From the IMG/VR virus record IMGVR_UViG_2718218100_000001: 64,000 nt of DNA, one strand, 5' to 3'. The position numbers were made by a program. Of this stretch, positions 1-6,000 are shown piece by piece. How positions within the stretch are numbered: the stretch's first letter is position 1; the number at the start of each line of letters is the position of its first letter. This DNA comes from a virus (taxonomy: Duplodnaviria; Heunggongvirae; Uroviricota; Caudoviricetes).

Positions 1-3000
1 ATGGAAAAAGACCTGAAAGAGTTGCGGGAATACCTATTACTTTCCCCCGTCTATTCTGAAATTAACGATTGTCTGGCTAGTCTCTCAATGGAAGACGTGA
101 CCAATGAAGAGTTCGCGGAACGTTTGGGAATTGCTCCTGATTGGATGGATGCTATAGATACTAGCCAACTTGCTTAAGAAAGGATGCGCCATTGCTGGGC
201 GCGTTTCTCATTTCTCCCGTAGCACTACGCATACCTTCTAATAAATTTCACCATCAAAATCAGTAGATTGATAAAATGTCACTCAAATCTGTCATAAGTA
301 TCACAATTTTTAAACCTAATTGAAATATAATGTTATTAGATATTATCTAATGGAGGTAGTTTAATGTCTTATGCGTTGATTGATAATGCTTCGTTAACAG
401 CAGTCGAAAGAACACTGGGTGATATTCTTGTTAAGAATCCAGATACTATTAACGGAGATTTAGTCGCTTTTGAAAATCTTATTCAAGCGATACTTTTTTA
501 CGATACCCTGATCTGTGTAGATAATTATAAAAAAGAATATAGAGATAAACGCATTGCTAAATTTGACTTTATTAAATTTGTATCTGAAAGTGATTTTCAA
601 CTCAGTGAACTTGATCAGTTAGCACAAGTTGAATCTCGGCAAATTACTTCCGAAATTAGAGGTGGGGAGTTTGTTGACGATGATTTTAGGCAACTTGTAG
701 AGATGCTTAAGCTGAATATGATTTGCACATGGGATCTTCGGTCTAGCGTGTATTACTTAACAATGAAAATGCTTGGTCAGCCCGGTACTCCTGAATATGC
801 GAAATATAGTGAACTAAGTGCATCGATTTTTAATGAATTATCAGATGCTTCTGATACGAAAGGGTACTGGTCAACCGATGTGAAGCTAGTGAGTTCATCT
901 GGACATGAATATACTGAGCGTGAATTTGAACTAGAAAGGGAAAAATCTACTCGCGGTAAAGGAGGTATGACTCGTTCACTTGAAATGTTTATCGCATCGC
1001 TAAATTGGTTGGCATATAAATCTATTTATTACAGCGTCATTGCTAAGCATTTTAAAGCAGACTCATTTATTCATCCAATAAGGCATGCATATCAATTGCA
1101 TTGGATGAAAAAAACAGGTGCTTTTGGTCATGATTATACTGCAAGGTTGGTGCAATCGTTGTCTGATAAAATCAGTACTGCAAGATCTGAAATTGTAGAT
1201 CATGGACGCACATCTACTATTTCATTAGATTTACCAATATTTTCTGCATGGCTAGCAAACGAAACAGGAAATGTCTCTCAAGTTATCAATTCAGCTTTAG
1301 AGCTTAGAACACATGATCATTTTCGTACGTGTCGAGATGTAATCCGAGAGATTCATGTGACCTACGATGAATCGGGGATAAGTGCAGGAAATAAAAAAGT
1401 AACAAAATTACTAAGTGATTTAGATAAAATATCTGGAGATATTAAACGAAGCTACGGTGTTCCATCAAATCAAGGTATTCAAGGCAGTTTTTTGATAAAA
1501 TGTATAAATTCATTGACAGGACTCGTGGGTATTCCAGGTTTGCCTGATAAAGAGTTTGCACTGAGCACTCCTGAATTTATGAAGTCTAAACAACATAAAG
1601 CATTTTCTACCGTTTTCAAGGATGTTACTAACGAACTAACAAGCATTGAACGTTTAGGTGGGCTTCGGGATAAATTAGCGTCGAACTTTACTATTGATGA
1701 TTCTTATTATACCGAGCCAAAAACAGAGGATCCGAGATTCCGTTACGTAAGTAGTAATTGGAAGCAGCCAATGTAGATATAGTTAAATGTATAATTATAA
1801 GTAATAACAATTTACAGACATTATTGAATTAAAAATATTGCGTTAGGGTATAATATCTAACGCAATTAGATTGAAAAGTTAATTAAATAGTTAGTCAGAG
1901 CTAACTTCTTGTATTGTTAGTTACACTGCCTAACCTACAGACAAAAAGCCCCTCAGAATTGTGCTTACGCGCTCAAATTTCACTGCTGGGGATTTTTACG
2001 TACATTCAACCCAAAAAGTGACCAAAAAAGTTCTTACAGAGTTGACGTTACGTTGACGTTGTTTTCTGAAAATGATCCCTTGGTGACTTATTTTATGTAT
2101 TTGATTTTACGTTTTTTCTTTAATGTTTTATCACTTTAAACTAACGTCAACTTATCCTTATAGAGCGATTAATTTCTATAAGTACTTTTTCTCAAAATTT
2201 GATTTTTACGGATGGAAGTCCATCAAAGAAACGTCATTTTTTTCTAAGACTTTGATCTTTCGTTAACGGTGTTAGTGGGGACTTCGGTCGTCGAGCGCGA
2301 TGCGCTTCTGACCGTTTCAATGGATAGGTTCGCCTTCTTGCGCCTCTCGCGGCGTTTGCCGCGCTCCGCGCTTTTGGCGGTTTGGCAGGCATATCTCTCT
2401 TATTATTGGTCGTTTTTTGCACCGCCTTGTCACGATCTGTCACTACTAGTAGTAATGGTCATAACCTCCGCTTTCTCTTTTGGCTCTGGATGCTCTCACT
2501 CGTGCTCTTCTTAACATCCTTAACAGTGGGTGGGTTTGTACTTTGTTCGAGTTTATTATCTGTGAGGATAGTAATTCCCTGCGCTCTGTCTCTGCCTCTT
2601 TGGTGACCGCTATCACTGATAAATCCCAATCGTGTTTGCTAATTAACGGTGCTTGGAACGGGGTGATTGGTGATCGATTTATGTCTTGTCGTTTCAATGT
2701 ACGCTGTATCTGTCGCTTAGCTTTGTAGTTGTCTTTCCTTGATGCCTGAACGGCTTTTAGTATGCGTCTTACAGCATGAAAGCCAGTGATAGAAAGTGTT
2801 TCTTTTTTTATCTCATGCCGCGCCCAGCCATTCGAATAACCCCAAACGTTGGCATCTGACCAATCATATAGGCTCTTGCTCGCCTCTCTATTAAAGTCAT
2901 TTAACTTAGTTTCGGGCTTTGCCATGTAATCAATCTGTTTACCTATACACTTTGTAGGCTCTGAATATTGCTGACCTTTCAAATCTAGATCCCACTGGGG

Positions 3001-6000
3001 AGGAACATTTGATGGGATTGCATTGTTTGCCAGTGTTACCCATTTGCTGACAATTTTGCCAGCTTGCCCATTAATGCTTCTTTCGTTCACCATGATTATT
3101 GCGTGTACATGCGGCTCTGACTGGTGTTGAGCCCACTCCATGACGTAAACCCACTGATTGCCTTGAATGAAAGCGATATTGCATCGCTTGATACCAGAGT
3201 TCAGTCGCTGGAATCGCAGGTTTCAGACCATGAAACGCGCATTAATGCTCTGGAGTATGCCACTACGCGCAAGAAGTCAGAGGTTGTTTACTCTGGCGTA
3301 TCAGTAACCATCCCGACAGCGCCGACCAACCTTGTTAGCCTGCTGAAAACGCTTACGCCGTCATCCGGGACGTTGGCACCATTCTTCGACACCGTTAACA
3401 ACAAGATGGTTGTGTTCAACGAGAACAAAACCTTGTTCTTCAAGCTGTCGATTGTCGGGACGTGGCCCAGCGGAACCGCCAACAGGTCAATGCAGCTAAC
3501 ATTCTCCGGTTCTGTTCCTGACACGCTAGTAAGCAGTCGCAACTCGGCAACAACAACCGACAACATCCTGTTAGCTACGTTCTTCAGCGTGGATAAAGAC
3601 GGCTTTCTTGCCACAAATGGCAGCACGTTAACCATTCAGTCGAATGGCGCGGCGTTTACTGCCACAACCATCAAAATCATTGCGGAGCAGTGATGGAAAT
3701 AAAGCTCATCGATAACCCGGTGAAACTTGCAGAATTCCTTAACAACCCGGTAAACACGGGGAATATCGTAGACAGTGGAGATAAATACTACATCAAGCCT
3801 GATGCGGTATATCTCGGCATCTACGAAGGATTAGTGCTGGCTGGAGTTCATGAAGTGCGTAACTTCTGGCATAGCGTTGTTGAATGCCATGCGGTGTATG
3901 ACCCCGGATTCCGTGGCGAATATGCACTACAAGGGCATCGATTATTCTGCAAATGGCTTCTCGAAAACTCACCATTCCTTAACAGCATCACCATGGTTCC
4001 TGACACCACCAAATACGGACGGGCAATTATCCGTTTGCTTGGCGCTACCCGTGTTGGTCACCTTGATGATGCGTACATGAGTAACGGAAAACCGGTAGGA
4101 ATCACCCTCTATCAATTACCTCGTTCGAAATATGAGGAGCTATTAAATGTTAGTACTTAGCGAAAGCTTCAAGAATAAATTGCTTCCCATGAATGGGTAT
4201 ATGAAAGGCGGCAGCGACTCCGGATCTAAAGCCCAGGCACGCGCAACTGAAAAGGGCATCGAACTGCAGCGTGAAATGTGGCAGACGAACATGCAAAACC
4301 TTGCACCGTTCACGCCACTCGCTCAGCAGTACGTATCACAGTTGCAGAATCTTTCCTCTCTTCAGGGGCAAGGTCAGGCGCTTAACCAGTATTACAACTC
4401 TCAGCAGTATAAAGACCTTGCAGGGCAGGCGCGCTATCAGAGTCTGGCAGCAGCAGAGGCAACGGGTGGATTAGGCTCTACAGCAACAGGAAACCAGTTA
4501 GCAGCAATCGCACCTACACTCGGTCAAAACTGGCTGTCAGGTCAGATGAACAACTACAACAATCTGGCAAATATCGGCCTTGGTGCTCTTACAGGTCAGG
4601 CAAACGCCGGACAGAACTACGCTAACAATGTCAGCCAATTGTATCAACAGCAGGCGGCAGCATCGGCAGCAAATGCGAATAAGCCTTCAGGCCTACAGAG
4701 TTTTGCTACAGGTGCCATTGGTGGGGCCGCATCAGGTGCAATGATTGGTAGTGCAGTTCCTGTTATTGGGACTGGTATTGGTGCTCTTGCTGGCGGTGTT
4801 ATCGGTGGTCTTGGATCATTGTTTTAAGGTGGGAATATGGCTACTTGGCAACAAGGAATCAACTCAGGCGGTTTTCTTGCTGGTATCGGTGGGCAAAACT
4901 CAAATGCGCCAAAGGCAAGTGATGTAAGTGAGGCGTTGGCCTATATTCGCCAGAACAACGAAATGGAGCGTTCAGGTCGCAATAACATCGGCCTTCAGGC
5001 GTTGCAGGGACTTGGTAGTGTCGCTCAAACATCTCAAGCCGCAAAGCAACAGGAAGCGGATGCTGCATTCCAAAAAGAATATGCGGCAGCCATCCAGTCC
5101 GGCGATCGACAGCAGGTTCGAGATCTGATGACCAAATATCCTGGTCAATTAGAGAAGATTCAGTCTGGTATGAAGTGGGCAGACGAAGACCAGCGCAATT
5201 CTATCGGCACCTTAGCGGCTGGCGCACGCCTTGCGGCCTCGTCTCCAGAAGCAATGCAATCATGGCTGCAAAACAACGCCAAGGAACTGGCGCGCGTCGG
5301 TGTTGACCCTAACAACGTTGCTCAGATGTATCAGCAGAATCCTTCAGGGTTTGGTGAGTTTGTTTATCACCTTGGGATGGCTGCTCTCGGTCCGATTGAC
5401 TACTTCAATGTTCAGGACAAGATGGCTGGTCGTGAGATTGACCGAGGCAGGCTGGCAGAGACAATCCGCAGCAATCAGGCCGGAGATTTTGAGTTTAAGT
5501 CAAAGCCGTCATATTTAGTTCTATCATTTGCTGAAATATCATCTGTAGTCTTTATCCTAATGTCTGTCTATATGGTGGCAAAAAGTCAAAATAGCAATGG
5601 ATTACAGTATGATGCGCTTTTTATACCATCAATGGCCTTTTCAATATTAGTGTTTTCGTTTAATGGTGGTATTATTTCAAAAATAATATCAAATAAAGTT
5701 ATGATACTTTTAGGTGATGCTTCTTTTTCATTTTACTTGGTCCATACTATAGTAATCAGTACATTGAGCAAGTTCTTTAATGTTTCTGGTCTTGGTGCTA
5801 TAAGTGTAATTAAATTTATAGTAATGGCTCTGTTTGCTTCATTATTTATATCAATAATGATGTATTTGTTTTTTGAAAAGCCAATAAACAATAAGCTAAG
5901 AAAATGGTGGAGTGGATTTAAGAATGATGTTTCAACCACTCGAGTTGAAAAAATAGAAGGCAATCAATTATAGCAATTAAAGTATGATAAGCATTTATGA

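What the first reader, a model, noticed from the sequence alone, without database searches (positions are those of the whole stretch)
1800..3141. Iteron-like GTTGACGTT repeats next to a HUH-endonuclease-like ORF and an anomalously GC-rich block
Three copies of GTTGACGTT (two direct, one inverted) lie in AT-rich DNA beside an ORF beginning with a HUH-type motif (PHVHAIIMVN) and a downstream Y-x-x-K motif, the hallmarks of rolling-circle initiators or relaxases. The adjoining 2234-2750 segment is GC-rich with overlapping ORFs on both strands. At about 3124-3141 this block abuts a tail-fibre 3' fragment on the opposite strand. Together this looks like a remnant replicon, satellite or mobilisable element.
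Basis: partly seen in the sequence, partly recalled or inferred. Interest (0 to 1): 0.5.

Follow-up and report, generated by a model that had tools for sequence, protein, structure and literature searches.

The report
Truncated rolling-circle Rep island remnant
This stretch of the E. coli O157:H7 chromosome is the decayed right-hand half of a small island that inserts at the argW tRNA gene: a beheaded rolling-circle replication gene, its conserved non-coding control region and a swappable cargo gene of unknown function that may be anti-phage. The remnant is ordinary, but I found no description of its intact parent family.

Summary
GTTGACGTT occurs three times in the window (2041, 2052 direct; 2143 inverted). 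The minus-strand ORF 2446-3141 carries an HUH motif and a Y-x-x-K motif. It is joined to a phage gene fragment on the opposite strand.

The ORF is codons 112-350 of a 350-aa Rep-type HUH rolling-circle initiator. It lacks motif I. It is fused bluntly at 3164|3165 to the 3' part of an Sf6/P22-type tail-needle gene.

Intact relatives in 215 of 5426 complete E. coli genomes, and in Klebsiella, Citrobacter and E. albertii, show the parent. It is an 8-10 kb island at argW: integrase, an integrase-overlapping ORF, AlpA, small DNA-binding proteins, Rep, a conserved non-coding module, variable cargo (anti-phage-like in three of five), a small acidic ORF and a serine recombinase.

The core of the repeats is conserved even where Rep is only about 25% identical, so they are probably functional sites. 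I read them as part of the Rep origin, but no binding or nicking was tested. A relaxase/oriT role is not excluded.

The GC-rich block is non-coding hairpin DNA, and its ORFs are spurious. The remnant itself is immobile. I found no description of the parent family in the papers I could search.

The parts
1..177 (+). 58-aa small acidic ORF. It is a backbone gene of the island, reading towards the cargo and the non-coding module.
   Evidence: Its homologue sits in the same position and orientation in the Klebsiella island (64 aa, L003 13249-13443). Small ORFs in the same position and orientation occur on the plasmids (65-72 aa); their homology was not tested. No family match.
209..1938 (+). Variable cargo cassette, including the 470-aa ORF 364-1776 and a perfect 10-bp inverted repeat at 1837-1866.
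   Evidence: Similarity to the intact E. coli island L013 stops at window 208 on one side and at 1939 on the other. The same slot holds GapS6a/b in E. albertii, a SIR2-domain pair in L020 and unknown genes in L013. The 470-aa protein has more than 230 homologues at 54-86% identity across Proteobacteria and no Pfam, PADLOC or NCBIfam match.
1939..2261 (-). Conserved AT-rich non-coding module, the putative double-strand origin. It ends, on the rep strand, in a hairpin plus T-run at 1943-1991.
   Evidence: 94% identical to L002/L013 and conserved in blocks in E. albertii, the Klebsiella island and ColE1-type Klebsiella plasmids. No Rfam match.
2041..2060 (+). Two direct GTTGACGTT copies with an 11-bp period. 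The conserved core is TTGACGTTACGTTG.
   Evidence: Variants on the rep strand: Klebsiella CGTCAACGTAACATCAAC, E. albertii CATCAACATAACATCAAC, plasmids GCAACGTAAGGTCAA. In L013 and L002 the second copy has a 1-nt deletion.
2061..2142 (.). AT-rich spacer between the direct and inverted copies. Its sequence varies between relatives; it may be an unwinding region.
   Evidence: GC 28-33%. The window and L013 diverge here while the flanking motifs are kept.
2143..2151 (-). Inverted GTTGACGTT copy.
   Evidence: It is kept about 300 nt after the rep stop in L013, L011 and plasmid L009, and after the cargo in L010. It is not found in the Klebsiella island.
2157..2182 (.). Inverted repeat CTTATAGA-N10-TCTATAAG.
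   Evidence: pair I23. The arms recur in every relative with spacing from 9 nt to about 600 nt, and with a G-C to C-G swap in L009.
2232..2254 (-). Most conserved non-coding block; rep strand reads CAAAGTCTTAGAAAAAAATGACG.
   Evidence: CAAAGTCYTAGAAAAAAA is nearly invariant in islands and plasmids. L031 has AAAGTCCTAGAAAAG.
2262..2445 (-). GC-rich non-coding block with two short GC hairpins (2340-2371 and 2285-2314).
   Evidence: GC 51%. DNA fold z-scores are -2.0 and -2.2. Indels in relatives rule out coding. Hairpin-1 pairs are broken in L011 and L020. Plasmids and the Klebsiella island have different short GC hairpins in the same place.
2446..3164 (-). 5'-truncated rep pseudogene: codons 112-350 plus the stop of an HUH rolling-circle initiator. 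The mechanical ORF starts at an internal Met at 3141; RefSeq calls a 215-aa 'hypothetical protein' from 3094.
   Evidence: tblastn of P0001 residues 112-350 gives 96.7% identity. HUH and Y-x-x-K are present, but motif I (G80..T86) is absent. The fragment alone has no Pfam match.
3165..3693 (+). 3' part of an Sf6/P22-type tail-needle-knob gene, lacking about the first 107 codons. It is the neighbour across the deletion junction.
   Evidence: PF16532. 94-96% identical to phages Louie, Kapi1 and Sf6 from window 3165 onward. The junction is blunt, with no microhomology.

Best explanation
Window 1-3164, plus about 1.07 kb beyond the left edge up to a degenerate attR, is the surviving right-hand part of an 8-10 kb island that integrates at the argW tRNA-Arg gene.

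The intact element runs: attL, P4-type tyrosine integrase, an ORF overlapping the integrase by 8 nt, AlpA, a 63-aa ORF, an HTH protein, a 128-aa protein, Rep, a GC-hairpin block, a conserved AT-rich module, variable cargo, a small acidic ORF, a serine recombinase, attR.

In the O157:H7 lineage an Sf6/P22-like prophage lay between argW and the island. One illegitimate deletion then removed most of that prophage, the hybrid att site and the island's left 3.7 kb. It ended inside rep at codon 112.

Shown: the ORF 2446-3164 is a dead 5'-truncated gene for a single-tyrosine, Rep-type HUH endonuclease.

Inferred: in an intact element, Int and AlpA excise a circle, Rep nicks one strand within the conserved module, and the circle replicates by a rolling-circle mechanism. 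The GTTGAYG sites (one copy facing two, across a variable AT-rich spacer) and the CTTATA..TATAAG inverted pair would be protein-binding sites of that origin. The nearly invariant block CAAAGTCYTAGAAAAAAA is a candidate nick region. The serine recombinase would resolve multimers.

In this window the element cannot excise or make active Rep. What it keeps is the cis module and the cargo gene. Retention of the cargo is the most likely reason the remnant survives.
For: Identity and locus: 100% identical to O157:H7 chromosomes, next to argW and the csc genes.

Truncation: full-length homologues are 347-350 aa. Window homology starts at GNQWVYV, residue 112.

Replication role in the family: a 20%-identical relative is the only large gene on a 1,639-nt circle recovered identically from four sequencing runs.

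Intact islands with att repeats: K. pneumoniae L003 and E. coli L013. attR survives in O157 with a 1-nt deletion.

Exact blunt junction.

Conservation of non-coding blocks across islands and plasmids.

Cargo variability and defence content.

Other deletion variants that keep module and cargo: P0006, P0011 and L020.
Against: No nicking, binding or replication was tested. Which protein binds the repeats, and where the nick lies, are inferences.

The closest plasmid relatives (L009, L010, L015, L031) also carry a ColE1/pMB1-like origin. Rep is therefore not needed for their vegetative replication, and they do not prove an autonomous Rep replicon.

The repeat alone is only modestly non-random.

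The tandem pair is degenerate in some E. coli copies, and the inverted copy is missing in the Klebsiella island.

The GC hairpins are weakly constrained.

The Pfam score is only 2 bits above threshold for P0001 and just below it for P0010.
Confidence: 0.72

Rival explanations
1. The HUH protein is a Rep-like relaxase and the conserved module is an origin of transfer. The island would then be an integrative mobilisable element, and the small plasmids would be mobilised by a helper's conjugation machinery rather than replicated by this protein.
For: All resolvase-bearing plasmid relatives also have a ColE1-type origin, and MOB-suite finds no recognised relaxase on L009, L010 or L015. There is a weak sub-threshold hit to the MobA/VirD2 nuclease domain (17.5 against 24.6 bits). 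Small DNA-binding proteins lie just upstream, as relaxosome accessory genes would. Rep-derived relaxases are known (MOBT; PMC11389934).
Confidence: 0.15
2. The GTTGACGTT and CTTATA..TATAAG sites are operators for the element's HTH proteins or serine recombinase. They would serve regulation, or cargo exchange or inversion, and not Rep origin function.
For: The inverted pair CTTATA..TATAAG keeps its sequence while its spacing ranges from 9 to about 600 nt and can enclose cargo. Cargo is found at three different positions around the module. In L031 the module follows the resolvase gene rather than rep.
Against: A separate set of TGTCTCAAT-type repeats lies directly upstream of the recombinase gene, where res sites normally are (read by eye). 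The module co-occurs with Rep in every relative examined. No promoter-like site overlaps the repeats.
Confidence: 0.1
3. The ORF and repeats are the remnant of an integrated filamentous phage (inovirus), or the repeats are a chance feature of AT-rich DNA.
For: The Pfam family that matches was built on inovirus and plectrovirus G2P/ORF2 proteins. The repeat alone has p of about 0.03.
Against: No inovirus structural or assembly gene lies in any intact relative; all have integrase, AlpA, resolvase and cargo. tblastn of Rep against 50,697 phage records finds nothing. The repeat core is conserved across genera.
Confidence: 0.03

Closest known systems
Rep-type HUH rolling-circle initiators (Pfam PF23343 REP_ORF2-G2P; structurally SIRV1 ORF119 Rep, pMV158 RepB, circovirus and parvovirus Rep nuclease domains)
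   Same: Motif I, HUH and a single Y-x-x-K tyrosine occur in that order. The fold matches. The layout resembles the pMV158 origin as I recall it: an inverted repeat plus 11-bp direct repeats about 100 bp away.
   Different: Sequence similarity is marginal: 29.7 bits, and no PDB match by sequence. The family is small: 21 clusters among 1.84 billion representatives. The C-terminal 150 aa is helical and has no known domain. The host element is an integrative island, not a plasmid or virus.
PICMI phage satellites of Vibrionaceae (PMC10803314)
   Same: A small island with a tyrosine integrase, an ORF overlapping the integrase, AlpA, one replication gene, large non-coding regions and no capsid genes. 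PICMI is reported to replicate by rolling circle and to be packaged as concatemers.
   Different: PICMI's core replication gene is a primase, whereas here it is an HUH Rep. PICMI integrates downstream of fis, whereas this island integrates at argW. This island also has a serine recombinase. Phage induction and packaging are untested here.
P4-like satellites and PICIs of Enterobacterales, as carriers of defence hotspots
   Same: A P4-type integrase (Arm-DNA-bind_3, Phage_int_M, Phage_integrase), AlpA, tRNA integration and a variable anti-phage cargo slot.
   Different: The genes I recall as their hallmarks (alpha primase-helicase, psu/delta/sid, terS, capsid genes) gave no Pfam or PHROG match in the backbone. 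The element is about 8-10 kb with an HUH Rep.
Integrative mobilisable elements with Rep-like relaxases (MOBT type)
   Same: An integrase plus a single HUH-type protein plus a cis site, dependent on a helper for transfer.
   Different: As I recall, MOBT relaxases belong to Rep_trans and occur in Firmicutes. This protein is not Rep_trans (no hit) and it occurs in Enterobacteriaceae.
Small ColE1-type Klebsiella plasmids (e.g. NZ_CP073059.1, NZ_AP022186.1)
   Same: They share the block: HTH, a 126-128-aa protein, HUH Rep, GC hairpins, the conserved motifs, a small opposite-strand ORF and a serine recombinase.
   Different: Rep is only 25-29% identical. The plasmids have no integrase or AlpA and carry a ColE1-like origin. 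There is no nucleotide-level match to the window module.

Membership tests
HUH endonuclease superfamily, Rep class | HUH motif: two histidines separated by a hydrophobic residue, on a beta strand | tested here: met
   PHVHAII in the window ORF. H130 and H132 are invariant in 15 sequences. They lie in a predicted strand, E130-137.
HUH endonuclease superfamily, Rep class | Catalytic Tyr motif (Y-x-x-K) C-terminal to HUH | tested here: met
   IDYMAKP. Y191 and K194 are invariant. Catalysis itself was not tested.
HUH endonuclease superfamily, Rep class | Motif I (uuTuT-like strand) N-terminal to HUH | tested here: not met
   It is present in full-length relatives (G80..T86, 'PYxFTLT'). It is absent from the window ORF, which begins at residue 112 (homology) or 120 (ATG). 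The window copy is therefore a fragment, not a functional member.
HUH endonuclease superfamily, Rep class | HUH nuclease fold | tested here: met
Pfam PF23343 REP_ORF2-G2P | Score at or above the gathering threshold (27.8 bits) | tested here: inconclusive
   P0001 scores 29.7 bits (met). P0010 scores 27.3 (just below). The window fragment has no hit at E up to 1.
Conjugative relaxases (MOBQ/MOBF/MOBP type; Pfam Relaxase PF03432) | Catalytic Tyr N-terminal to a three-histidine motif; family HMM above threshold | tested here: not met
   No hit at E up to 0.1 for P0001 or P0010.
Iterons of theta-replicating plasmids | An array of at least three direct repeats of about 17-22 bp, bound by a winged-helix RepA encoded next to them | tested here: not met
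   There are only two direct copies of 9 nt (11-bp period) plus one inverted copy. The adjacent protein is an HUH Rep. 'Iteron-like' holds only in the loose sense of repeated binding sites.
PICMI satellites | Core genes: integrase, integrase-overlapping gene, alpA and primase | tested here: not met
   In the intact relatives the integrase, the overlapping ORF (8-nt overlap; L003 7938 against 7945) and AlpA (PF05930) are present. There is no primase; an HUH Rep takes its place. None of these genes survives in the window.
PICMI and other phage satellites | Helper-phage-induced excision, replication and packaging | not testable with these tools
   Only indirect evidence: tandem residence with prophages at argW and no match in phage genome records.
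tRNA-integrating genomic island | Tyrosine integrase next to a tRNA gene, with a direct repeat of the tRNA 3' end at the far border | tested here: met
   GATTCCTGCAGGGGACACCA occurs at both borders in L003, L004, L007 and L013. In O157 the far copy has a 1-nt deletion and lies outside the window. The tRNA is at window 7467-7541.

The most novel reading that the evidence does not exclude
The intact parent of this remnant defines an undescribed family of minimalist helper-dependent elements in Enterobacteriaceae. They would be PICMI-like in layout but driven by an HUH rolling-circle Rep. On this reading they excise from argW, amplify by rolling-circle replication and spread by phage packaging or another helper. 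They would shuttle exchangeable anti-phage cassettes. These include the widespread but unannotated 470-aa protein kept in O157:H7, whose N-terminal domain may be PIN-like. The same Rep-module-recombinase block has also colonised ColE1 plasmids.
Probability: 0.3. Interest if true: 0.7.

Novelty: new variant of a known kind. Interest (0 to 1): 0.42.

Why it matters
For O157:H7 itself the finding is ordinary genome archaeology. A tandem prophage-island array at argW collapsed by deletion, leaving a pseudogene, an orphan cis region and one cargo gene.

The wider value lies in what the remnant points to.
- A compact island is present intact in about 4% of complete E. coli genomes, and also in Klebsiella, Citrobacter and E. 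albertii.
- It pairs a P4-type integrase and AlpA with an HUH rolling-circle Rep.
- It carries a swappable cargo slot. GAPS6, a SIR2-domain pair and an HNH candidate were seen there.

If this island is a satellite or hitcher, it would add a rolling-circle type to the known enterobacterial repertoire. Its cargo slot would also be a place to look for new defence genes, starting with the 470-aa protein conserved at 54-86% identity across many Proteobacteria.

Tried and rejected
- Rfam scans of 1-4000 (E up to 1) and of four relatives found no RNA family in the module or GC block.
- NCBIfam and PADLOC gave nothing for Rep or the 470-aa cargo.
- PDB sequence searches with the protein and with the profile gave nothing significant.
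- Coding potential of the GC block (69-aa basic ORF 2234-2443 and others) is rejected because relatives differ by frame-breaking indels.
- A promoter reading of the TTGACG hexamers is rejected: there is no matching -10 and no scan hit.
- MetJ, CRP or Cra-type sites were considered from memory. None fits the spacing or the half-sites. No database was searched.
- I first took the 5.7-kb Klebsiella plasmids as proof of an autonomous Rep replicon.
- Nucleotide searches of the module against plasmids, and of 1-3164 against phages, found nothing relevant.
- The search for related loci with the broad alignment failed. The narrower alignment found only two species representatives.
- Seven literature searches and four papers checked by term search found no description of this island family. 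Subscription journals are not covered.

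
Full report
**Where the window is.** The region is 100% identical to many E. coli O157:H7 chromosomes. In the annotated record NZ_CP033605 it lies between the csc sucrose genes and the argW tRNA-Arg gene. RefSeq annotates, in window orientation:
- a serine 'recombinase family protein' just left of the window;
- a 58-aa ORF (1-177);
- a 470-aa hypothetical protein (364-1776);
- a 215-aa hypothetical protein on the minus strand (2446-3094);
- a pseudogenised tail needle knob gene;
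- DUF2824, two ejection proteins, intS and argW (7467-7541).

**The observation.**
- GTTGACGTT occurs three times in 64 kb, all within 111 bp: two direct copies 11 bp apart and one inverted.
- Across the whole window three copies were reached by 3 of 100 shuffles. Within the 669-nt AT-rich spacer, any non-trivial 9-mer reaches three copies in 3.4% of resamples. The repeat alone is therefore suggestive, not compelling.
- The minus-strand ORF 2446-3141 contains PHVHAII and IDYMAKP.
- GC is 51% for about 2200-2500, against 29-33% in the spacer and 40-44% in the ORF.

**What the ORF is.**
- A search of 5.8 billion proteins returned a 350-aa protein (P0001) that is 97% identical over the whole ORF. 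Klebsiella proteins of 324-347 aa were 55% identical. These carry the Pfam mark PF23343.
- In-frame translation upstream of the ATG shows that homology begins at GNQWVYV, residue 112. The window copy is therefore the C-terminal two-thirds of the gene.
- Full-length P0001 scores 29.7 bits against REP_ORF2-G2P, whose threshold is 27.8. It scores 17.5 bits, below threshold, against the MobA/VirD2 relaxase nuclease domain. It has no Rep_trans hit. The window fragment alone matches nothing.
- An exhaustive scan of 1.84 billion representatives found only 21 clusters at E of 1e-3 or better.
- Aligning 15 sequences down to 19% identity gives these invariant residues: G80 and T86 (motif I, 'PYxFTLT'), E121, P129-H130-x-H132 (HUH), W153, Q177, Y191-x-x-K194 and W225. 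This is the Rep order of motifs, with one catalytic tyrosine after HUH.
- RefSeq names the intact E. coli protein 'rolling circle replication-associated protein'.
- A 20%-identical relative is the only large gene on a 1,639-nt circle. That circle was recovered identically, with rotated starts, from four sequencing runs. This shows that members of the family can be the sole replication gene of a replicon.

**The parent element.** In K. pneumoniae (L003) and in E. coli WP4-W18-ESBL-09 (L013) the gene sits in an island directly downstream of argW. The island is bounded by a repeat of the tRNA 3' end. It is about 8.1 kb in Klebsiella and 10.3 kb in E. coli. The gene order is:
1. a P4-type integrase;
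2. a 246-251-aa ORF overlapping the integrase by 8 nt;
3. AlpA;
4. a 63-aa ORF;
5. an HTH protein;
6. a 128-aa protein;
7. Rep;
8. non-coding DNA;
9. variable cargo;
10. a small acidic ORF on the opposite strand;
11. a 208-aa serine recombinase.

A query spanning alpA to the module finds at least 80% coverage in 215 of 5426 complete E. coli genomes. About 312 genomes carry the truncated O157 form. Among one genome per species, only E. albertii and a Citrobacter have it.

**How the remnant arose.** Rep homology ends at window 3164. Homology to Sf6, Kapi1 and Louie tail-needle genes begins at 3165. The joint is blunt, with no microhomology. The island's attR survives about 1.07 kb left of the window, with a 1-nt deletion. 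The simplest history is a tandem array: argW, an Sf6/P22-like prophage, then the island. Such arrays exist elsewhere. A single deletion then ran from needle codon 107 to rep codon 112.

The prophage remnant has a second internal deletion. ORF 4837-5973 joins a gp20-type translocase to an acyltransferase fragment.

Other genomes show independent deletions that also keep the module and cargo:
- Rad52 fused to Rep residue 211 (P0006);
- the island's own integrase fused to Rep residue 256 (P0011);
- a P22-like remnant joined 81 nt upstream of an intact rep (L020).

**The non-coding region.** The window and E. coli relatives are about 94% identical from the rep stop to window 1939, and then diverge into different cargo. 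The GC-rich block (2262-2445) folds into two short GC hairpins, with z of about -2. Relatives differ there by a 7-nt duplication and by 1- and 2-nt indels. Two relatives break pairs of hairpin 1. The block is therefore non-coding and only loosely constrained. Klebsiella islands and plasmids have different short GC hairpins at the same place.

Downstream, several blocks recur in E. coli, E. albertii, the Klebsiella island and ColE1-type plasmids whose Rep is only about 25% identical:
- CAAAGTCYTAGAAAAAAA (window 2232-2254);
- a TxGAAGGGCxTCC box;
- the inverted pair CTTATA..TATAAG (2157-2182);
- a forward GTTGACGT (2143-2151);
- a reverse core CAACGTAA[C/G]GTCAA (2042-2055).

The AT-rich spacer between the forward and reverse sites varies freely. 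Cargo is inserted at three different positions around these blocks. The spacing of the CTTATA..TATAAG pair ranges from 9 to about 600 nt, which suggests protein-binding sites rather than an obligatory hairpin. No Rfam family matches and no promoter is predicted on the repeats.

**Mechanism.**
- Shown: the ORF is a truncated Rep-type HUH gene. The element is an argW island remnant. The repeats belong to a conserved cis module linked to Rep.
- Inferred: the module is the Rep origin. The GTTGAYG sites would be binding sites flanking an unwinding spacer, with a nick nearby.
- The layout resembles the pMV158 origin as I recall it (an inverted repeat plus 11-bp direct repeats). That is an analogy, not a test.

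**Main uncertainty.** Every resolvase-bearing plasmid relative also carries a ColE1-like origin, about 71% identical to pMB1 over 365 bp. Rep there is either a second, perhaps inducible, replicon or a transfer function. I therefore keep a relaxase/oriT rival at about 0.15.

**Cargo.**
- E. albertii carries GapS6a/GapS6b.
- L020 carries a SIR2-domain protein with a partner.
- Klebsiella carries an HNH_2 protein matching a PADLOC candidate.
- L013 and the window carry unknown genes.

The window's 470-aa protein has more than 230 homologues at 54-86% identity, from Dickeya and Vibrio to Pseudomonas and Burkholderiales. It has no annotation. Its model is poor. The N-terminal domain gives weak VapC/PIN matches, and four invariant acidic residues fit a PIN tetrad. 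This is tentative.

**Comparison and novelty.**
- The layout is closest to PICMI satellites (integrase, overlapping ORF, AlpA, one replication gene, no capsid genes; PMC10803314). However, it fails PICMI's defining primase.
- It also lacks P4 and PICI hallmarks.
- I found no paper describing it, within a library that omits most subscription journals.

I rate the window feature as a decayed copy of a new variant of a known kind of element. Interest is moderate.

Noticed in passing
window 364-1776 (+): The 470-aa cargo protein has no Pfam, PADLOC or NCBIfam match. It has more than 230 homologues at 54-86% identity scattered across Gamma- and Betaproteobacteria. Its N-terminal ~130 aa give weak VapC/PIN structural matches, and invariant D7, E37, D105 and D124 fit a PIN acidic tetrad. 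It is a candidate new defence or toxin gene.
   Followed up: partly
window 4837-5973 (+): A chimeric ORF: the N-terminal 217 aa are a P22 gp20-type injectosome translocase (PF16928). They are fused to the C-terminal part of an Acyl_transf_3 O-acetylase-like protein in AT-rich DNA. This is a second internal deletion in the Sf6/P22-like prophage remnant.
   Followed up: partly
window 1837-1866; L013 about 11921-11942; L003 about 13606-13631: Unrelated cargo cassettes and the Klebsiella backbone carry palindromes built from the same 8-mers (TAACGCAA / TTGCGTTA), in different arm order. They could be terminators, or shared recombination or binding sites. This is unexplained.
   Followed up: no
L027-L030 (Logan contigs, 1,669 nt with 30-nt terminal overlap): An identical 1,639-nt circular element was recovered from four sequencing runs. 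It encodes only a 324-aa distant Rep relative (PF23343) and an 84-aa ORF, which makes it a very small putative rolling-circle replicon.
   Followed up: partly
L009, L010, L015 (Klebsiella plasmids of about 5.7-6.1 kb; L015's record is a 12,132-bp apparent dimer); L031 (4,542-nt circle): Small plasmids carry the block HTH, 126-aa protein, HUH Rep, conserved non-coding motifs and serine recombinase. MOB-suite types L009, L010 and L015 as non-mobilisable. They also carry a divergent ColE1/pMB1-like origin that Rfam's gathering threshold did not flag on L009 and L010.
   Followed up: partly
P0006, P0011, L020: Other E. coli genomes have independent deletions ending in or just upstream of rep: Rad52 fused to Rep residue 211, the island integrase fused to Rep residue 256, and a P22-like remnant joined 81 nt upstream of rep. 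All keep the module and cargo. This suggests repeated loss of mobility with retention of the cargo.
   Followed up: partly
L002 ends (1-28 and 3223-3250): The 3.25-kb contig holding a full-length rep is bounded by inverted copies of what I recognise from memory as an IS1 terminal repeat (GGTAATGACTCCAACTTATTGATAGTG). In that genome, IS1 copies appear to cut the island on both sides.
   Followed up: no
window 7737 onward (+): A second tyrosine integrase and a lambdoid prophage (Ant, Ea22-like, MT-A70 methylase and others) lie on the other side of argW. The tRNA gene is therefore flanked by mobile-element DNA on both sides.
   Followed up: no
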